Source: a virus. From it: a stretch of 34,173 nucleotides of DNA. Every line of letters begins with the position of its first letter. Position 1 is the first letter of the stretch. Below the pieces are notes generated by a model. It was not told the DNA's origin. It did not search any database and saw nothing but the letters and a program-made list of their open reading frames with translations. The translations under genes were made by a program, and so were the position numbers. Location of the stretch: the UHGV virus genome UHGV-0113711; one strand, written 5' to 3'. Below are positions 8,401 to 15,531 of the stretch, in pieces.

Positions 8401-8587
8401 ATATACTCCTTTGTAAAACTATATTTATAGCCTCCATAACATTACAAAAGAATGATATTTTTAATTTGAGGTGTCGTCCAAATATGATTATATTCCAAAG
8501 TGACATTAATGAATATTGTCCCGACTACGGAATAGGGATTAAAATAAACCGTAACCGGGAAATATATTTATTATCCATTTTTAACCA

Positions 8588-10357
8588 TCATGGATAGTAC
8601 AAATTTTTAAAGTGATTATTAATATCAACCATAGCATCAAGAATTGGTTTGAACAATGAAAAATCTATAGTCTGTCTATTTTCTCTGATAATATTGTTGG
8701 CAAACCTGTCTTTTCCAAAAGTAGTAGTGCTATCATGATTATTACTTTTATCAAAGGATTTACCGTTAATTGTCTTTGTCAGAACTTCATCTTTGAAAAA
8801 GTCTTCCATGCACGATTGTTTATCACCAGCCAATAGTGGAGTTAACAATACGTAGAGGTTATTCTCTAAATGTAAAAATTTATGTTTTCTTACGTCCTCT
8901 GATTTTCTAGGCAGGTGAGAATATTCTTTGATTATATTATTAATAAAATCAGATGGCCCAGTGTCATTATCCAAAACAATTATTACTGGATTTTTAGGCG
9001 GTTGTCTTTCAAATTTCTTGCATTGTTCTCTATGCCTTCTAAAGAATCTTACATAGTCAGCAGCCCCACCGTAGAGGTCTAAAAAATATTCCTTTTTTGC
9101 GTTTGTTTTGAATAACGTAATATTTAAAATTCTATTCTTTGTTCTATCGTCAACTCTAACCAGAGCAGGATAACTTAAATACAAAGAATCAATTGCACAT
9201 TTCAAATAAATTGGATCTGTTTTACCTTCTGTCAAAACTGTAGGCTTTATATTCCCATAAAAATACTTATAATGAAGAAAGTTACTGAATGCTGTCTCTC
9301 TTGAATTCAATTTGAGAGTAAAATTAATTCCAGTTTTCTTTAGCACATATTTTTCTGGGAGTGTATGTTTTTTAGCGTTAATGTTATTATACTTATCAAG
9401 CATATCAATATAAACGAAGCGGCCTTCAAGTTCATTTAGAGTACCTTTTCGCGGTTTTCCACTAATATCCAAAAGGGTAAAATCCCCTTCTTTATAAAGT
9501 GCATGCGCCATAGCTCTGGTTTTTTTAATATAATCTTTATTGACATTTATTTTTTTGTTTACGGTTAAACCTGTTACTTCCTGCCTTGATGTATGCCGCA
9601 ATATTCTGGTCTTATTATTATTAATTTTAAATCCAGCTTTTTCAATTTCATTAACTAACAATGGTCCTAACTCGTTAGAATTCTCATTTATAACAATTGA
9701 GTCAGGAAACTGATTTTTGTTAGTTGAGAATGTTATATCATCTGCATATCGACTATAACTGCATCCATTAGAAAGTGCCAACTTTGACAATCTAATATCT
9801 AAAATATTACATATAAGATTGCTTATTACAGGAGAGCAAGGACTTCCTTGCGGAAGTTTTCCATCATAGCAAGCTATCTGCGCAATTATAGTTGCTATTG
9901 ATGGGTGCAAATTAAAATATTGATTCGCGATAAAATAACCACGGACCCTACCGAAATTAAATGTAGGGAAAAAATCCTCAAGATCAATATTTAAAACATT
10001 GGTTTTATTTCTATGTCTTTCTGCATTTGTTATTATTGTTTTATTTTTCTCAAATCCATGAGATAAGCTAGGGGTGATATTATTTGTTTTCCATATTTCG
10101 CTCTGACAAACATACAATAAATCTGATAAACGCCTTTGTATGTCTTTTAGTTTTTCAGTAGGCGCAAATATCTCTCTGTCACCTCCAGACTTCTTTTTTA
10201 TAATAAATCTTTCATATTGATGCTCAGGTCGTATTCTGTACAGGACATTAGTAAGAAAAGAAACTTTAATTTGAAGTAAGCGTGCAAACTCAAATTTGGT
10301 CTTGCATGACTTGAGTCTTTCTAAGTAGGAGGGAGTGAACATAATAGTAAATTCCAT
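8588..10357 (-). CDS. Retron-type reverse transcriptase with C-terminal Toprim domain (Ec67-family architecture)
   Basis: Reverse-transcriptase motifs are KKSGGDREIFAPT (box 1/2), LNIDLEDFFPTFNF (box A), LPQGSPCSPVISNLICNILD (box B'), YSRYADDITFST (box C, YADD) and SRQEVTGLTVN. The C-terminal ~250 aa carry Toprim signatures TVLTEGKTDPIYLK (conserved Glu) and PVIIVLDNDTGPSD (DxD). Size (584-589 aa) and block order match my recollection of the Ec67 reverse transcriptase (586 aa). The true start may be the Met at 10342. Confidence 0.9.
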   Translation of the reverse strand: MEFTIMFTPSYLERLKSCKTKFEFARLLQIKVSFLTNVLYRIRPEHQYERFIIKKKSGGDREIFAPTEKLKDIQRRLSDLLYVCQSEIWKTNNITPSLSHGFEKNKTIITNAERHRNKTNVLNIDLEDFFPTFNFGRVRGYFIANQYFNLHPSIATIIAQIACYDGKLPQGSPCSPVISNLICNILDIRLSKLALSNGCSYSRYADDITFSTNKNQFPDSIVINENSNELGPLLVNEIEKAGFKINNNKTRILRHTSRQEVTGLTVNKKINVNKDYIKKTRAMAHALYKEGDFTLLDISGKPRKGTLNELEGRFVYIDMLDKYNNINAKKHTLPEKYVLKKTGINFTLKLNSRETAFSNFLHYKYFYGNIKPTVLTEGKTDPIYLKCAIDSLYLSYPALVRVDDRTKNRILNITLFKTNAKKEYFLDLYGGAADYVRFFRRHREQCKKFERQPPKNPVIIVLDNDTGPSDFINNIIKEYSHLPRKSEDVRKHKFLHLENNLYVLLTPLLAGDKQSCMEDFFKDEVLTKTINGKSFDKSNNHDSTTTFGKDRFANNIIRENRQTIDFSLFKPILDAMVDINNHFKNLYYP

Positions 10358-10373
10358 TATTAATTATGTTATT

Positions 10374-10502
10374 GCACATGCAGGCACTCTTACGCATTTC
10401 AAAGTGACGCCCAAGAAGATCCGACGTCCGTCAGAGGCGAATACTGCCGACCTTTTAATCACTGATTGCGATACCACAACCAACAAATCTACCTGCATGT
10501 GC
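10374..10502 (-). ncRNA. Candidate retron msr-msd non-coding RNA bounded by a1/a2 inverted repeats (approximate)
   Basis: Perfect 11-bp inverted repeat: gcacatgcagg (10374..10384) and cctgcatgtgc (10492..10502), spanning 129 bp immediately 5' of the reverse-transcriptase start on the minus strand. This is the position and scale expected for retron a2/a1. The internal msr/msd boundary and branch G are not determined. Confidence 0.5.
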
Positions 10503-10787
10503 CTTGCTAATTTATCATAGTTAACAATCAAAACAAGCACTTTTGAAAATGGCTGTATCTTATTGATTAACTAATCATGGTCAAAGCCGAACATTCCTCG
10601 TGAAGATTGTTAGAATTTGAGATCTTTACGAGCACTTAACAGACTGTCAGATTCAGTCATGGAGCAAGTTGAATGCAATGTTATCATGTATCACTTTTTC
10701 TTTTTCGTCGTTAAGATGGTTCATAAAACTTACCATTAAGTCGATTGATAACTAGTAATTACATCTGTAGGTTCTCTTGATGATTTG

Positions 10788-11528
10788 TCAGAGGGCATTT
10801 GAGCTAAATAAAGTTGATTCGACGAGTTCAATTGCTTCATCTTCGATAGTTGATTTGTCCATTGTTTTGGTCGGCTCAGAAATATCAATTTTCACAATTA
10901 CAATCTCGTCATCAAAAGATAGTTTTTCACCCCTTCTTTCTTTACGTAAAACGCTGTTCTCTTTGCTGAGTTCAGCGTTTTTCCTTTCTAACTCTGCGAC
11001 TCTTTTCATCAAATCTTCCATTTTGGAATTCACAACATCTAGTCTCTGCTCAGTCGGAAATTCAATACTTTCGATGATTTCAATAAATTCACCAGTATAC
11101 ATCTGAACAAACTGCTCGGTGTCTTTGATCTTCTGCATTCTTAGATCTGAACAGAAAGCTTTCCACGAGTTCTTTTTACCGTTAATTTCACAAGCAACGA
11201 TAACAGCATTATCGGTTGTATAAGCAACGATTGCAGGCAGATTATTAACTTCGGTCGTACCGATTTCGAAGCTATGCATATTTTTTACAGTCACAGCATT
11301 TTCAATCTTCTGTAACATCTTAGCTCGAACATTACGATGAATATCTATAGCTTTAACAAGAGCTTTCAGGCTGTTTTTGTTATTGGTCATTCTATTAACT
11401 TTGATAATATTTCTGTTCAGGCTTGCTTTAACTGTTCTGTCTAGATTTTCGAAGACTGCAAATTTGAAATTCAATTTATTTGCCTTTATTGATTGGTTGA
11501 GTTCTGATATTACGTTTTTTGCAAGCAT
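10788..11528 (-). CDS. Hypothetical protein (246 aa) with coiled-coil C-terminus
   Basis: Long ORF on the same strand as the retron and upstream of it. C-terminal KMEDLMKRVAELERKNAELSKENSVLRKERR is coiled-coil-like. The start may be a later Met because the 5' end overlaps the upstream small ORF. Confidence 0.6.
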   Translation of the reverse strand: MLAKNVISELNQSIKANKLNFKFAVFENLDRTVKASLNRNIIKVNRMTNNKNSLKALVKAIDIHRNVRAKMLQKIENAVTVKNMHSFEIGTTEVNNLPAIVAYTTDNAVIVACEINGKKNSWKAFCSDLRMQKIKDTEQFVQMYTGEFIEIIESIEFPTEQRLDVVNSKMEDLMKRVAELERKNAELSKENSVLRKERRGEKLSFDDEIVIVKIDISEPTKTMDKSTIEDEAIELVESTLFSSNAL

Positions 11529-11634
11529 TATACATCGTTGCTTTATTCATTTGTTTAGATTCTGCAATTTGCTGAAATGTCTCACCAGAGTCTAAGCGAG
11601 ATTCAATTTCGAATTTGTTAGGTATAAATTTCAT
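11476..11634 (-). CDS. Small putative HTH DNA-binding protein (52 aa)
   Basis: Internal Met of track ORF 11476..11670. ETFQQIAESKQMNKATMYNACKK resembles a helix-turn-helix. Weak ribosome-binding site; overlaps the downstream 246-aa ORF by ~50 bp in another frame. Confidence 0.35.
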   Translation of the reverse strand: MKFIPNKFEIESRLDSGETFQQIAESKQMNKATMYNACKKRNIRTQPINKGK

Positions 11635-11665
11635 GGGGTTGCCTTTTTTATTGAATTGAAAAATA

Positions 11666-11683
11666 AGCACTCCGAAGAGTGCT
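11666..11683. terminator. Hairpin agcactc-cgaa-gagtgct flanked by A/T runs
   Basis: 7-bp stem with a 4-nt loop. The upstream A-run (plus strand) would be a T-run for minus-strand transcripts, so it may insulate the HTH gene from the non-coding region to its right. Confidence 0.35.
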
Positions 11684-12016
11684 TTAAACTTAAGGAATTT
11701 TTAAATGAACTAAGCTAATTGCTTATATCTTATTTTATGACGGATAAAGTCAGTAGTAAACAAACGAGAGAAAATAACGAGGAAGAAGAAACTCTCTGTG
11801 TTCATACTAATATTTATATAGTTCACCGAAAGTGTAAACAAAGTCCGAAAAATAATTTAGTGAAAAGCAGGTGCATTGATGCACATCAAAACGCATCGAT
11901 AACGCATCGATGCGACTCGGAGAAGTGCATGGACCCTAGAAAAAATCGCCCTATAAGAACAATTGGATAAAGATGAACTGGAAGGATATAGAAGCAGTAC
12001 AAAACCTGGAAAACAT

Positions 12017-12159
12017 AGCGAAGCGAGCAGATTGCGCGAAGCGCGGGCGAAGCCCTAATTGATAAACATTAGCGCGAAGCGCGACAGATAACACTATCGA
12101 ACTTGATTACTAGCTACTGATTAGATGTTTCTAGATAAAGATTATTAGCGCTTCGCGCG
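12017..12159. repeat. Cluster of GCGAAGC mini-hairpin motifs (four direct, one inverted) in an otherwise AT-rich non-coding region
   Basis: GCGAAGC at 12017..12023, 12035..12041 (within gcgcgaagcgcg), 12046..12052 (within gggcgaagccc) and 12073..12079 (within gcgcgaagcgcg). The inverted copy gcgcttcgcgcg is at 12148..12159. Confidence 0.6.
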
Positions 12160-12621
12160 TTCGCTACGCTCACAATATTATTTTTCAGATCTGGATAATA
12201 ATGATTACTGGATAACTGCATTATACTGTTCGTCTGACAATCAATAAACATAACGATCGATAATTAATTGAAATAACGTTAATGAGTTCTCCTTCGCTAT
12301 CGCTACGTCGAACGGGCAAGCCCTATCTTTGATGATAGTAATGATTGACTGCTACATCATCCCTCCTCGCTTCTCCCTGCTTCTACTGACCTAATGATAC
12401 TCCAAGTCAATTCCCTGTTATCAAGTTCACCTGATGCTTCCTGCTTCGTTATCGACCTTATTGCTTTTGACTCTACGCTTTCAGCTTCGCAGGAAGTACG
12501 CCCTGCTGTTTGCAGATCGTTCTAAAGAACTGAGTAATCAAGTTCTCAACTATTTGATTCCTTGCGCCCCAAAGATGCCTCCAGTATCTGTGGTTTACAA
12601 TCTACTCATTTGAAATTCAAT

Positions 12622-12648
12622 AAAAAAGGGAGCACTAAGCTCCCTTTT
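12622..12648. terminator. Bidirectional Rho-independent terminator
   Basis: aaaaaa-gggagc-actaa-gctccc-tttt: a 6-bp GC-rich stem (12628..12644) flanked by an A-run and a T-run, immediately 3' of the 59-codon minus-strand gene. Confidence 0.7.
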
Positions 12649-12649
12649 G

Positions 12650-12829
12650 TCATTTCAGACCAAGCACTAATGCTTGTTCAAGTTTTTTCTCAAGCAGAGT
12701 GTTTAATCCACTTTCGAAAAATTCAATCGCTTGAACGTCTGAGTCTGTTTTTAAGCGAACAGCGGCATCGTCAACTGTTAACTCTTCGGTCTTAACATCA
12801 CCGTTTTTATAAACCACATTAGCAATCAT
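12650..12829 (-). CDS. Small acidic protein (59 aa), self-contained transcription unit
   Basis: ATG at 12829 preceded by AAAGGAGA; translation MIANVVYKNGDVKTEELTVDDAAVRLKTDSDVQAIEFFESGLNTLLEKKLEQALVLGLK. Absent from the ORF track (below its apparent length cutoff). Has its own promoter and terminator. Confidence 0.6.
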   Translation of the reverse strand: MIANVVYKNGDVKTEELTVDDAAVRLKTDSDVQAIEFFESGLNTLLEKKLEQALVLGLK

Positions 12830-12850
12830 GCTTTCTCCTTTGTTGCTAAA

Positions 12851-12879
12851 AAATAATAACCGAATGATATCACTTGTTC
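12851..12879 (-). promoter_or_regulatory. Sigma70-like promoter for the 59-codon gene (-35 TTGAAC, 17-bp spacer, -10 TATTAT)
   Basis: Minus-strand reading ttgaac-aagtgatatcattcggt-tattat, ending ~10 nt before the ribosome-binding site. Confidence 0.5.
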
Positions 12880-13067
12880 AATTTTTCTTTCAATCAAATA
12901 AGTATCCGATGAATAGTCGGCTCTCTAAACTAGCAGGTATGAAATAGTTCCTTAATTCTGAACTTCCTCACTTTGCTTCCTATTTAATATTGCAATTTTA
13001 AATCTAGTGTAATTAATTTAGCTACAAACTTGCATTTATTATACATTTAAAAAATCGCCTCCATTCG

Positions 13068-13502
13068 TTAGGCATTCTCAGTTTCACTCATTTCTCCTTT
13101 AGTGCTATTCACACAGCGAAGAAACTGATCCCTCTGATACGCGGCAGTTTTGTCTGACATCTGTTTTTTGAATAACTCAAAATCCCCCTCTGTACGTTTA
13201 AAAATAATCATGCTAATCGCAGATGGTTTTTTATTAGCCGATTTGCTAGCAAGAAGTTTTTCGATGTTATCGAATCCGAAAGCCTGATTCACGATTCGTT
13301 GTGCTTCAACAGCATCGACAACTTCAACCGTATTTTCAGCTTTAACTTCTTCAACAACTGTATATTCCTCGATGTTAGCTTTAACACGACGAACAACAGA
13401 ACGAGGAACATCGTATTTTTCAGCAAGCTTACTCTCTGACATATCAGTACCAGCGTTTAATTCAGAAGCAATTCGGTTTTCAACAGTCAGTTCAGTTTTC
13501 AT
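13068..13502 (-). CDS. Putative HTH DNA-binding protein (144 aa)
   Basis: Start moved to the internal ATG 13502 (AGGAGA 6 nt upstream); track start 13559 has no ribosome-binding site. SESKLAEKYDVPRSVVRRV looks like a helix-turn-helix. Divergent from the large terminase gene. Confidence 0.6.
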   Translation of the reverse strand: MKTELTVENRIASELNAGTDMSESKLAEKYDVPRSVVRRVKANIEEYTVVEEVKAENTVEVVDAVEAQRIVNQAFGFDNIEKLLASKSANKKPSAISMIIFKRTEGDFELFKKQMSDKTAAYQRDQFLRCVNSTKGEMSETENA

Positions 13503-13647: not shown

Positions 13648-15531
13648 ATGAAAAACTCAAATAAACTGAAAAGTATCTTACAGAATGCAAAGCGCTTTTT
13701 AATGCCACCTCCTGACTACACTCCGTCCGAGTGGGTCGAACAGTACCTGAAATTCCCTGATGGTCCTTATACAGGGCAGCCGATGAAACTGTTTGAGTTT
13801 CAGAAAGGCATGATTGACGTCATTAAAGAACGTAAGAAGAAAATCGTCTTCGAGACTTCTGCCCAGATTGGCAAGACAACCATCTTGAACGGAATTCTGT
13901 TCTATAAGTCTGCTACTGATCCCGGTAACGCTGGTGTCTTGCAGTCAACCGGTAAAGAGACGACTCAATGGCTATCAGGCAAGATTCGCCCAATGATTGA
14001 CGAATCGGAAGAAATGCAACGAATCGTCACCGACAAGAACGACAGAAACGCAGTGAATAACACCAGTCAAATTCAGCTACGTGCTGGAGGCTTTTGGTAT
14101 TTCATGTCGCTCAATAGCCCTTCTCACTTACGCGGTAAAACTCTTCCGCTGATGTTGCTTGATGAAGTTGACGCAGTTGAAACAGACACAGAAGAAGGCA
14201 ACCCGATTATCATCGCGGAACAACGTGCTACGACGTTCGGTGAAGACGCTCGTGTTTTCATTAGCTCGACGCCTACAAGTAAATACGGTGCTATCCACAC
14301 GCAGTATGAAGCATCCGACAAGCGCAAGTATCATGTTCCCTGTCCTACATGTGGTCATAAGCACGAACTGACGTGGGAGAATATCAAATTCGACTGGGTA
14401 AAAATCGATGGTAAATCATTACCTGATCCTAACTCTGCCAGAATTGAATGTCCTGAATGTCATCACGCTTTCTCTGAAGGCGACCGAGCACGAGCAATTA
14501 AACAAGGTGAATGGATTATTCATCAACCTGAAAGTCGAATTGCTGGATTCCACGTAAGTCGTTTATACAGCCCAATGAGTTCTATCAAATCAGTTGTTGA
14601 AGACTATAAGCAAGCATGGCAAACGTTCAGCTTGTCAACGTTTTATAACACTGTTCTTGGTCTACCGTTTGATGATTTAAACGAAGACATTGAGGTTAGT
14701 AAATTAGAAACACTCAAGACGAATATCGGCATCAGCAATATACCAGAAGACACGTTGTTTTTAACCGCTGGGGTTGACCAACAGCAAGACCGTTTAGAAG
14801 TAACCTTGATGGGTCACAACGAACGAACCGTTTATATTCTTGCACATCGTAGCTTTATGACAATGAACGCTGAGGTTATCGATTCCCCTGCTTATAAAGA
14901 ACTTCTTGCATACGTTAAAGCACCGTTCAGAACAGCTTTGGGAAGAAAGGTTCCTTTAGCGTGGGTGAACGTCGATAGCTCAAACGGTCGAGCAACTAAA
15001 ACAATCTATCGTTTCTGCTCTCAGTGGACAAACCTGAAAGCAATTAAAGGTGCCAGCTCTGTTGATGCCCCTTATGTTCCAACGAAAATCACGAAAACCG
15101 GTGGTTATGAACTTTATATGATTGGTGTAAACCAAGGAAAAAACTTAGTTCGTGAACTGCTAAACAGAAGCGTGAAATCTGGAAATACACCAGTCAGAGT
15201 CGAAATCTCTGATGATGTTCCAGATGATTACTGCGAACAGCTTATGTCCGAAGAATTAAAACGCTCTGGTAATACTGTTAGATGGGTTATTAAACAAGGC
15301 GGTGTTCGTAACGAAGGTCTTGACTGCTTTAACTACGGTTATTGCGCGCGTCTGCAAGTTCTAGAGAAAATCAAATTTCACGAGTGGAGGAAACTCGCTG
15401 CTAAATCTGATATTGAAATGCCAGAAGAACAAAACGAAACAAATTCTCCTGTTATTCAAACTCATGAACCTCGTCGAAACATTATCAAACGAAACAGACC
15501 AGTTAATAAGCCTCGTGGTTTCGGATTATAA
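13648..15531 (+). CDS. Terminase large subunit, lambda GpA family
   Basis: N-terminal PPPDYTPSEWVEQYLKFPDG parallels the lambda A N-terminus. The ATPase region IVFETSAQIGKTT and the zinc-finger-like HVPCPTCGHKHELTWENIKFD...ECPECHH parallel lambda A VACPHCGEEQYLKFGD. Length 627 aa. Confidence 0.85.
   Translation: MKNSNKLKSILQNAKRFLMPPPDYTPSEWVEQYLKFPDGPYTGQPMKLFEFQKGMIDVIKERKKKIVFETSAQIGKTTILNGILFYKSATDPGNAGVLQSTGKETTQWLSGKIRPMIDESEEMQRIVTDKNDRNAVNNTSQIQLRAGGFWYFMSLNSPSHLRGKTLPLMLLDEVDAVETDTEEGNPIIIAEQRATTFGEDARVFISSTPTSKYGAIHTQYEASDKRKYHVPCPTCGHKHELTWENIKFDWVKIDGKSLPDPNSARIECPECHHAFSEGDRARAIKQGEWIIHQPESRIAGFHVSRLYSPMSSIKSVVEDYKQAWQTFSLSTFYNTVLGLPFDDLNEDIEVSKLETLKTNIGISNIPEDTLFLTAGVDQQQDRLEVTLMGHNERTVYILAHRSFMTMNAEVIDSPAYKELLAYVKAPFRTALGRKVPLAWVNVDSSNGRATKTIYRFCSQWTNLKAIKGASSVDAPYVPTKITKTGGYELYMIGVNQGKNLVRELLNRSVKSGNTPVRVEISDDVPDDYCEQLMSEELKRSGNTVRWVIKQGGVRNEGLDCFNYGYCARLQVLEKIKFHEWRKLAAKSDIEMPEEQNETNSPVIQTHEPRRNIIKRNRPVNKPRGFGL

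What the first reader, a model, noticed from the sequence alone, without database searches (positions are those of the whole stretch)
12622..12879. Unannotated 59-codon gene with its own promoter, strong ribosome-binding site and terminator
A near-consensus promoter (TTGAAC-17 bp-TATTAT), an AAAGGAGA site, a 59-aa acidic ORF (12829..12650) and a GC-rich terminator form a complete minimal transcription unit that the ORF track misses. Small acidic phage proteins of this kind are often anti-defence factors, antitoxins or regulators. It lies in the same cargo block as the retron.
Basis: seen in the sequence. Interest (0 to 1): 0.45.

Follow-up and report, generated by a model that had tools for sequence, protein, structure and literature searches.

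The report
Small conserved prophage gene, function unknown
The 59-codon reading frame is a real, self-contained small gene of an E. coli prophage. Public databases already list it as a hypothetical protein, it is independent of the neighbouring retron, and its function is unknown.

Summary
Window 12829..12650 (-) encodes a 59-aa acidic protein (pI 4.5) with an AAGGAG Shine-Dalgarno site 5 nt before the ATG. A 10-bp hairpin plus T-run terminator follows at 12648..12622, and sigma-70-like promoters lie just upstream.

It is a genuine protein gene. A 57-59-aa family (56-98% identity) occurs in related prophages of E. coli, Kluyvera, Enterobacter and Serratia. dN/dS is 0.08-0.36 on saturated synonymous sites, and the ribosome site and terminator are conserved.

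It is not unannotated: RefSeq lists it as hypothetical protein WP_000561393.1.

It is not tied to the retron. The single-gene type I-C retron sits in a separate hotspot 1.8 kb away. Close relatives carry Septu there, others carry nothing, and all keep this gene.

The gene occupies a fixed slot behind a GntR-like HTH gene, in a minus-strand non-structural block between the small and large terminase genes.

The AlphaFold model is confident (pLDDT 91, beta-beta-alpha-beta-alpha). It matches no known fold or family convincingly, so function is unknown. I infer a small protein-binding modulator made independently of the late operon.

This is an ordinary small phage gene of low interest. The conserved gene-less 0.9 kb next to it, which looks like a replication origin, is the more unusual feature.

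The parts
12650..12829 (-). ORF59: 59-aa acidic protein gene, equal to RefSeq WP_000561393.1 (hypothetical protein)
   Evidence: ORF listed. The exact protein occurs in 403 blocks of public assemblies and is called as a gene there. RefSeq annotation. Family of 57-59 aa at 56-98% identity. dN/dS 0.08-0.36. AF2 pLDDT 91.
12834..12841 (-). Shine-Dalgarno site AAAGGAGA, with AAGGAG 5 nt before the ATG
   Evidence: AAGGA(G) lies at the same distance from the ATG in L014, L016, L018, L020, L027 and L028.
12864..12893 (-). Promoter candidate P1: TTGAAA, 18 nt, TG-a-TATCAT (extended -10). This is the candidate best supported by comparison.
   Evidence: 10/12 matches with TG. TGn plus (A/T)AT(C/A)AT at a comparable position in L016, L020, L027, L028 and L029. 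Not tested experimentally.
12853..12881 (-).
   Evidence: 9/12 matches. Its -10 hexamer has no counterpart in the diverged relatives.
12622..12648 (-). Intrinsic terminator: 10-bp stem (6 G-C pairs), 5-nt loop, T run. An A-run upstream and a T-run downstream make it potentially bidirectional.
   Evidence: dG -20.7 kcal/mol, z -3.8. The hairpin is conserved with paired changes in relatives: GGGGAGC/GCTCCCC, GGGAGCC/GGCTCCC, GGGACTC/GAGTCCC. In relatives it is shared with convergent genes.
12855..13022 (-). Decayed remnant (pseudogene) of a small 'MKLDIP...' family gene. It fills most of the 238-nt spacer upstream of ORF59, and both promoter candidates lie in its 3' end.
   Evidence: tblastn of the intact L031 homologue gives 32% identity over 59 aa, E 1.6e-4. 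The translation shows 4 in-frame stops within the matched stretch 13022..12855. Intact copies sit directly upstream of ORF59 homologues in L015 and L030.
13068..13502 (-). Upstream neighbour: 144-aa GntR-like HTH protein, divergent from the large terminase gene. It heads the minus-strand block.

Best explanation
ORF59 is a genuine small gene of the prophage, not a companion of the retron.

Shown:
- The window is a 34-kb siphovirus-like prophage with a serine recombinase, integrated between ybiT and ldtB of E. coli.
- Its small terminase gene (7533..8081, +) and large terminase gene (13648.., +) are separated by a 5.5-kb block on the opposite strand. The order is HTH144, decayed small gene, ORF59, 0.9 kb of conserved non-coding DNA, a 52-aa HTH gene, a 246-aa gene, a defence hotspot (here the retron), and a Zn-ribbon gene.
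- ORF59 occupies a fixed slot in that block. It has its own sigma-70-type promoter, a strong ribosome site and an intrinsic terminator. In several relatives a second terminator lies just upstream, so the unit is insulated on both sides.
- The product is a 6.5-kDa soluble acidic protein predicted to fold as beta-hairpin, helix, strand, long helix. It has no membrane segment and no recognisable DNA-binding or catalytic motif.

Inferred:
- Because the cassette is insulated and carries a constitutive-looking promoter, the protein is probably made independently of the late structural operon, either in the lysogen or early after induction.
- Being too small and featureless for catalysis, it probably acts by binding another protein as a modulator or inhibitor.
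- The gene and the adjacent HTH gene diverge much faster than the structural genes (54-73% against 82-89% identity). Citrobacter relatives carry an 82-89-aa distant homologue with a different C-terminal helix. I therefore think the partner is a component of the phage's own regulatory or immunity circuit, or of a competing phage or host factor under arms-race pressure. The partner is unknown.
For: Real gene:
- Family of 14 clusters, all 47-59 aa (13 of 14 are 57-59 aa).
- pS 0.55-0.86 against pN 0.15-0.29, giving dN/dS 0.08-0.36. It is the only frame open in all lineages.
- The SD motif is enriched at gene starts.
- The terminator is conserved with paired changes.

Fixed slot independent of the retron:
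- Synteny is TerL, HTH, 0-2 small genes, ORF59 in E. coli, Kluyvera, Enterobacter and IMG/VR contigs.
- In Serratia the gene sits in an operon headed by the small terminase gene.
- The homology break lies at about 10894.
- ORF59 is 100% nucleotide-identical in relatives that carry Septu in place of the retron.
- The retron is type I-C, 'single gene'.

Insulated cassette: a terminator, then a TGn -10 promoter, then the SD site lie upstream in L020, L027 and L028.

Protein properties: pI 4.5. AF2 pLDDT 91.4, pTM 0.73.

Distant homologue in the same slot: hhalign probability 89.6%, E 1.9e-6 over 44 residues.

Relative divergence of the genes.

Terminase small subunit identification: phrog_57, E 3e-21.
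Against: - There is no transcript, TSS or peptide evidence. No tool here could supply it.
- Promoter-like hits are not enriched over chance in this AT-rich region.
- Both candidates lie in the relic 3' end of a decayed gene, so they partly reflect inherited coding sequence.
- No terminator separates HTH144 from ORF59 in this window, so the gene may simply be co-transcribed with HTH144.
- One relative (L031) has no ORF59-like gene in the slot, so the gene is dispensable for the phage.
- In close relatives the ORF has no substitutions at all, while the flanks differ by 1-3%. That is compatible with nucleotide-level constraint or recent recombination as well as with protein constraint.
Confidence: 0.8

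Rival explanations
1. ORF59 is an anti-defence factor, antitoxin or modulator dedicated to the neighbouring retron.
For: It lies on the same strand and in the same inter-terminase block as the retron RT, 2.3 kb upstream of it. It is small and acidic.
Against: ORF59 homologues occur in relatives with no retron (L014, L016, L018, L020, L027, L028). The identical gene occurs next to Septu PtuA/PtuB in place of the retron. PADLOC classifies the RT as a single-gene I-C system. Two conserved genes and 0.9 kb of conserved non-coding DNA lie between ORF59 and the retron.
Confidence: 0.03
2. ORF59 is a moron-type lysogenic-conversion or superinfection-exclusion gene. It would be expressed from the repressed prophage and act against incoming phages or on the host, as a general defence or anti-defence factor rather than a retron-specific one.
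For: The cassette is flanked by a promoter and a terminator, and in several lineages by terminators on both sides. The same slot in relatives carries typical moron cargo: lipoproteins and a YadA-anchor protein. The family diverges quickly and has a variable C-terminus. The gene stays intact in two IS-disrupted, probably defective prophages, including one where IS5 removed HTH144.
Against: The family is present in nearly all relatives at a fixed position rather than sporadically. G+C content is the same as the rest of the phage, 0.39 against 0.36-0.44. There are no hits to defence models apart from 14-16-bit PDC-S05 matches that I reject. No anti-defence library was available.
Confidence: 0.25
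3. ORF59 is a regulatory accessory of the phage's own life cycle. It could be a partner or antagonist of the adjacent HTH144 regulator, a lysis-lysogeny or replication modulator next to the origin-like region, or the recombination directionality factor of the large serine recombinase.
For: It lies immediately downstream of HTH144 in most lineages and upstream of the conserved origin-like DNA, the 52-aa HTH gene and the 246-aa gene. These are the only non-structural, non-lysis, non-defence genes in the 34-kb element. HTH144 and ORF59 diverge to similar extents. From my own knowledge, untested here: some RDFs of serine integrases are this small, for example TP901-1 Orf7 and SPbeta SprB.
Against: In Serratia the gene is not next to an HTH144 homologue. 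L031 lacks it. There is no DNA-binding fold and no similarity to any known regulator or RDF. Co-occurrence with the recombinase was seen only where the flanks reached it.
Confidence: 0.25
4. The ORF is a chance open frame, and the region functions as RNA or DNA or not at all.
For: ORFs of this length are common by chance here. Promoter-like sites are at chance density. There are no substitutions, not even synonymous ones, in close relatives.
Against: Length-conserved homologues reach down to 56% identity, with dN/dS well below 1 and all other frames closed. The SD site is conserved at a fixed distance. The fold prediction is confident. Rfam gives no significant hit.
Confidence: 0.02

Closest known systems
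Prophage 'morons': autonomous promoter-gene-terminator units such as lambda bor/lom or HK97 gp15 (own knowledge of the concept)
   Same: A short single-gene unit inside a prophage with its own sigma-70-like promoter, strong SD site and intrinsic terminator. In several relatives it is insulated by terminators on both sides. It shares its slot with typical moron cargo such as lipoproteins and a YadA-anchor protein.
   Different: It is not sporadic. The family, or a distant homologue, occupies the same slot in nearly all relatives. There is no compositional contrast with the phage. Expression in the lysogen is untested. It has no sequence similarity to any named moron.
Small acidic phage-encoded inhibitors and regulators, for example lambda Ral and CIII, T7 Ocr and Gp0.4, and anti-CRISPRs (own knowledge)
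   Same: Size (59 aa), acidity (pI 4.5), soluble compact fold, rapid divergence.
   Different: No sequence or fold similarity to any of them. No functional test.
C-terminal domains of WYL-type regulators (DriD, PafBC), and the lambda Ea22 C-terminal domain
Retron type I-C (Ec67-like RT-Toprim), the neighbouring system
   Same: Same strand and same inter-terminase block in this prophage.
   Different: The retron is a single-gene system in a separate, exchangeable hotspot. ORF59 is present without it.

Membership tests
Protein-coding gene (as opposed to a chance ORF) | Reading frame and length conserved in diverged relatives | tested here: met
   14 clusters of 47-59 aa (13 of 14 are 57-59 aa) at 56-98% identity. 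All other frames are closed in every lineage.
Protein-coding gene (as opposed to a chance ORF) | Purifying selection at the amino-acid level | tested here: met
   Nei-Gojobori pS 0.55-0.86 against pN 0.15-0.29. dN/dS is 0.08-0.36 where it can be computed.
Protein-coding gene (as opposed to a chance ORF) | Detected transcript or peptide | not testable with these tools
   No expression data are available. A full-text search for the accession found no paper.
Retron-associated accessory or effector gene | Co-occurs with the retron RT and ncRNA across relatives | tested here: not met
   The gene is present in retron-free relatives and next to Septu. The RT matches the 'RT-Toprim_I-C, single gene' model.
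Prophage moron | Own promoter and own terminator flanking a single gene | tested here: met
   In silico only.
Prophage moron | Sporadic presence among otherwise similar phages, and atypical composition | tested here: not met
   The slot is occupied by the family or a distant homologue in all but one relative examined. G+C is 0.39, the same as the surrounding phage.
Prophage moron | Expressed from the repressed prophage | not testable with these tools
   Needs RNA-seq of a lysogen.
Type II antitoxin | Adjacent, co-conserved toxin gene in one operon | tested here: not met
   Neighbours differ between lineages: none, a lipoprotein, an 'MKLDIP' small protein, or a 65-aa protein. In this window the unit is monocistronic.
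Type II antitoxin | Known antitoxin DNA-binding fold (RHH, HTH, AbrB, Phd/YefM) | tested here: not met
PADLOC candidate PDC-S05 (RhuM-domain defence candidate) | Significant match to the family model, and a Virulence_RhuM domain | tested here: not met
   Only 13.8-16.5 bits (E 0.002-0.013) in 3 of 11 family members scanned, over about 30 N-terminal residues. There is no RhuM hit in Pfam. A bioRxiv preprint describes a tested PDC-S05 representative as carrying a RhuM domain (10.1101/2024.09.26.614923).
Known anti-defence protein families (Acr, Ocr/Ard, anti-retron and others) | Sequence or structural similarity to a characterised member | tested here: inconclusive
Recombination directionality factor of a large serine recombinase | Binds the integrase and switches it to excision; co-inherited with the integrase | not tested
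   The prophage does encode a 501-aa serine recombinase. The rest is a lead from memory only.

The most novel reading that the evidence does not exclude
ORF59 and its 82-89-aa distant homologues form an uncharacterised, fast-evolving family of prophage-encoded small inhibitor proteins. They share a conserved beta-beta-alpha-beta core and a variable C-terminal helix. They would be expressed from an insulated cassette in the lysogen and would block either a host defence system or a competing phage, making them a new anti-defence or superinfection-exclusion family with no known fold relative.
Probability: 0.12. Interest if true: 0.45.

Novelty: new member of a known kind. Interest (0 to 1): 0.17.

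Why it matters
On its own it matters little. It is one more small phage gene with no characterised relatives, already catalogued as a hypothetical protein.

Its practical value is negative information for anyone studying the retron: the retron here is a self-contained cargo in an exchangeable hotspot, and ORF59 is not part of it.

The work also maps this poorly represented prophage lineage, whose closest cultured phage has only 52% TerL identity. The map includes an unusual opposite-strand block between the small and large terminase genes. That block carries the regulator, ORF59, an origin-like conserved non-coding element and a defence hotspot. This gives a framework for testing what the small gene does.

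Tried and rejected
- Sequence family searches of ORF59 in Pfam, PHROGs, NCBIfam and PADLOC found nothing significant.
- A profile search against PDB sequences found nothing.
- tblastn against cultured phages found one chance hit at E = 6. tblastn against plasmids found none.
- A scan of one genome per GTDB species found no relative.
- Foldseek against BFVD gave no hit with E <= 0.001. afdb50 was unavailable.
- The PADLOC PDC-S05 lead was followed and rejected. The scores are weak and partial, and a bioRxiv preprint describes a tested PDC-S05 representative as carrying a RhuM domain.
- The idea that the Serratia downstream 65-aa gene is a paralogue was rejected by hhalign (probability 0.3%).
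- The 38-nt match to KVP40-like vibriophages covers only the generic terminator hairpin.
- The Rfam hits, STnc320 at 12610-12656 and TarB at 11655-11726, fall far below gathering scores and overlap the terminator hairpins.
- Modelling HTH144 to decide between repressor and packaging protein showed only a generic HTH regulator. The small terminase is a different gene.
- Literature searches for the accession and for an inter-terminase hotspot gave nothing relevant.

Full report
**1. The observation**

The minus strand of window 12900..12610 reads as follows. TTGAAA-18 nt-TATCAT (with TG upstream) overlaps TTGAAC-17 nt-TATTAT. Then come AAAGGAGA, 4 more nt, and an ATG at 12829. A 59-codon ORF ends with TGA at 12650. 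The hairpin AAAAGGGAGC-TTAGT-GCTCCCTTTT plus TT follows at 12648..12622.

- The product has pI 4.54 and net charge -4.5.
- The hairpin folds at -20.7 kcal/mol, z = -3.8, and 0 of 200 shuffles fold as well. The simple terminator scan missed it, probably because four T's are absorbed into the stem.
- AAGGAG-N4-8-ATG occurs 8 times in the window against 1.5 expected, and at least six of the eight occurrences coincide with ORF starts.
- Promoter-like hits are at chance density in this AT-rich region (13 against 10.7 +/- 3.8).
- ORFs of this size are common by chance.

The sequence description is therefore correct, but on its own it would not prove a gene.

**2. It is a real protein-coding gene, and it is already catalogued**

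The exact protein is recorded in 403 blocks of public assemblies, and gene callers call it in every locus fetched. NCBI lists it as 'MULTISPECIES: hypothetical protein [Enterobacteriaceae]' (EFJ99661.1 and others). RefSeq lists it as WP_000561393.1 in E. coli MS 115-1 and 2021CK-01361.

An exhaustive HMMER search and a profile search found a small family of 14 clusters. All are 47-59 aa (13 of 14 are 57-59 aa) at 56-98% identity, from E. coli, Kluyvera, Enterobacter and Serratia.

Between lineages, synonymous sites are saturated (pS 0.55-0.86) while pN is 0.15-0.29. dN/dS is 0.08-0.36, and the frame is the only one open in all lineages. AAGGA(G) sits at the same distance from the ATG everywhere. 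The terminator hairpin is kept with paired changes: GGGGAGC/GCTCCCC, GGGAGCC/GGCTCCC, GGGACTC/GAGTCCC.

**3. Where it sits**

The window is essentially one 34-kb prophage integrated between ybiT and ldtB. It carries:

- a large serine recombinase;
- a lysozyme;
- a YuaX plus TIR pair (PADLOC PDC-S35);
- a small terminase at 7533..8081 (phrog_57, E 3e-21);
- a lambda-GpA-type large terminase at 13648..15531;
- portal, protease-capsid fusion, tail fibre, tail tip and tape-measure genes.

The closest cultured phage has only 52% TerL identity.

The two terminase genes are on the plus strand. They are separated by a 5.5-kb minus-strand block in this order:

1. HTH144, GntR-like;
2. a 238-nt spacer;
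3. ORF59;
4. about 0.95 kb without genes;
5. a 52-aa HTH gene;
6. a 246-aa gene;
7. retron ncRNA and RT;
8. a 70-aa Zn-ribbon gene.

The same order recurs in E. coli, Kluyvera, Enterobacter and IMG/VR relatives. In Serratia, ORF59 sits in an operon headed by the small-terminase homologue, and the 52-aa and 246-aa pair again lies downstream.

**4. No link to the retron**

The RT matches PADLOC 'RT-Toprim_I-C, single gene' at E 7e-216. RefSeq calls it 'retron Ec67 family'.

Homology with relatives that lack the retron extends through ORF59 and breaks only at about window 10894, in the 3' end of the 246-aa gene. The interval between that gene and the Zn-ribbon gene holds different content in different relatives:

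- the retron here;
- Septu PtuA/PtuB in L005-7 and L012 (E 1e-155 and 2.5e-94);
- unrelated genes in L020 and L027;
- nothing in L014 and L028.

ORF59 is retained in all of these. It is 100% nucleotide-identical in the Septu-bearing relatives, whose flanks differ by 1-3%. The retron is therefore cargo in an exchangeable hotspot, and ORF59 belongs to the conserved framework 1.8 kb away.

**5. The expression cassette**

P1 is the extended -10 candidate at 12893..12864. Its counterparts are TGA-AATCAT in L020 and L027, TGG-AATCAT in L028, and TGG-AATAAT in L016 and L029. Each has a -35-like hexamer 17 nt upstream.

In L020, L027 and L028 a terminator hairpin lies just upstream of this promoter, so the unit is insulated on both sides.

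In this window the 238-nt spacer is instead a decayed gene. It translates, with four in-frame stops in the matched stretch, into a recognisable remnant of a small 'MKLDIP...' family. That family is intact directly upstream of ORF59 homologues in L015 and L030. Both promoter candidates lie in its relic 3' end.

No clear terminator separates HTH144 from ORF59 here, so read-through transcription is also possible. In strain 2021CK-01361 an IS5 element has removed HTH144 but left ORF59 and its upstream 270 nt intact.

**6. The protein**

AlphaFold2 with the 14-sequence alignment gives pLDDT 91.4 and pTM 0.73. The elements are strand 2-7, strand 12-16, helix 19-28, strand 32-37 and helix 40-56, with a less confident hydrophobic C-terminal tail. 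Invariant residues are mostly core hydrophobics.

Citrobacter relatives have no ORF59 by BLAST. They carry, in the same slot and with the same type of promoter and terminator, an 82-89-aa protein whose first 44 residues align to the ORF59 profile (hhalign 89.6%, E 1.9e-6). One relative, L031, has neither.

The slot also hosts lipoproteins and a YadA-anchor protein in some relatives. ORF59 and HTH144 are 54-73% identical between lineages, where TerL is 82-89% identical.

**7. What it most likely does**

Shown: this is a real, independently equipped small gene of the prophage's non-structural block, unrelated to the retron.

Inferred: it is expressed independently of the late operon, and it acts by binding another protein. 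The reasons for the second point are that it is too small for catalysis and has no membrane segment and no DNA-binding motif.

I cannot discriminate between two roles. One is a part in the phage's own regulatory, immunity, replication or excision circuit (about 0.25). The other is a moron-like exclusion or anti-defence role (about 0.25). A retron-specific role is about 0.03, and a non-coding artefact about 0.02.

**8. Comparison and novelty**

In architecture the unit works like a prophage moron: promoter, gene, terminator. It fails the 'sporadic and compositionally foreign' criterion. It belongs to no described protein family. It is an ordinary, already-catalogued small phage gene with no characterised relatives, so it counts as a new member of a known kind and is of low interest.

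**9. Seen in passing**

The gene-less 0.9 kb next to ORF59 (about 11635-12490) is conserved at 69-74% DNA identity in lineages where ORF59 itself is only about 63% identical. Its features are:

- an invariant TATAAT;
- several GCGAAGC/GCTTCGC mini-hairpin motifs;
- 11-bp-period direct repeats, AACGCATCGAT x2 here and CCCAGTTACGA x3.9 at the aligned position in Serratia;
- TTTGTTTAC repeats;
- a covarying terminator hairpin just before the 52-aa HTH gene.

It has no Rfam match and no match in cultured phages. It looks like a replication origin or operator array with lineage-specific iterons, or possibly a non-coding RNA. It deserves a look more than ORF59 does.

Noticed in passing
window 11635..12490 (core), between the ORF59 terminator and the 52-aa HTH gene at 11634..11476: A gene-less stretch of about 0.9 kb is conserved at 69-74% DNA identity in distant relatives (Enterobacter, E. 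coli, Serratia, IMG/VR). The neighbouring coding genes are more diverged than that. It contains an invariant TATAAT (about 12223-12218, minus strand) and about six GCGAAGC/GCTTCGC mini-hairpin motifs. It also has 11-bp-period direct repeats: AACGCATCGAT x2 at 11890-11911, replaced by CCCAGTTACGA x3.9 at the aligned position in Serratia. TTTGTTTAC repeats and a terminator hairpin at 11684-11665 with compensatory changes complete it. It is probably a replication origin or iteron array for the downstream 52-aa HTH and 246-aa proteins, or else a 300-550-nt ncRNA. There is no Rfam hit and no match in cultured phages.
   Followed up: partly
window about 8400..10894 (retron ncRNA region 10358-10787 and RT 8588-10357), bounded by the 246-aa gene and the Zn-ribbon gene 8188-8400: An exchangeable defence hotspot lies between the 246-aa gene and a 70-aa Zn-ribbon gene. 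It holds a type I-C (Ec67-like RT-Toprim) retron here, Septu PtuA/PtuB in L005-7 and L012, other genes in L020 and L027, and nothing in L014 and L028. In L014 my own ORF scan joins the 246-aa homologue and the Zn-ribbon region in one 302-aa open frame; the assembly's gene call there lists only the 70-aa Zn-ribbon gene.
   Followed up: partly
window 7533..8081 (+) and 13648..15531 (+): The small terminase (phrog_57, E 3e-21) and large terminase genes are on the same strand. They are separated by a 5.5-kb block transcribed in the opposite direction. That block holds what look like the phage's only regulatory and replication genes, plus the defence hotspot. This is an unusual packaging-module layout.
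   Followed up: partly
window 12855..13022 (-): The 'intergenic' spacer between HTH144 and ORF59 is a pseudogene. It is a remnant, with four in-frame stops, of a small 'MKLDIP...W.HDF.IS.CGK.ITL' protein family that is intact in relatives (L015, L030, L031; distant in Serratia L018).
   Followed up: yes
window 6027..7222 (+): A YuaX-like 95-99-aa gene and a 298-aa CAP12/PCTIR-type TIR protein (PADLOC PDC-S35, E 1e-70) form a second probable defence cargo between the lysozyme and small terminase genes. The pair is 98-100% identical in otherwise diverged relatives, which suggests recent exchange.
   Followed up: no
L013 (NZ_CP107720.1) and L023 (NZ_CP146665.1, E. coli MS 115-1): The only two complete RefSeq E. 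coli genomes with this prophage (2 of 5426) carry IS-disrupted copies. IS3 sits inside TerL in MS 115-1. In 2021CK-01361 an IS5 element (ISEc68) replaces HTH144 and the 5' part of TerL, and a second ISEc68 copy lies in the tail region. ORF59 is intact in both.
   Followed up: partly
window 12620..12657: A 38-nt match at 94.7% to an intergenic site in KVP40-like T4-type vibriophages. It covers only the AAAAGGGAGC...GCTCCCTTTTTT terminator hairpin. The same hairpin type recurs after several genes in the related prophages, so this is a stereotyped terminator rather than homology.
   Followed up: partly
L014 8200..9548, L018 8402..11036, L020 8148..9006 (the region equivalent to window 12490..12615): Relatives carry convergent genes between ORF59 and the origin-like DNA. 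These are a small Cys-containing lipoprotein family (58-83 aa) and a GIY-YIG/NUMOD3 homing-endonuclease-like gene (201-207 aa). In the window they are deleted. Only weak short matches (12-13 aa, E 0.002-0.009) to the 3' ends of two such genes remain next to the ORF59 terminator, possibly a relic.
   Followed up: partly
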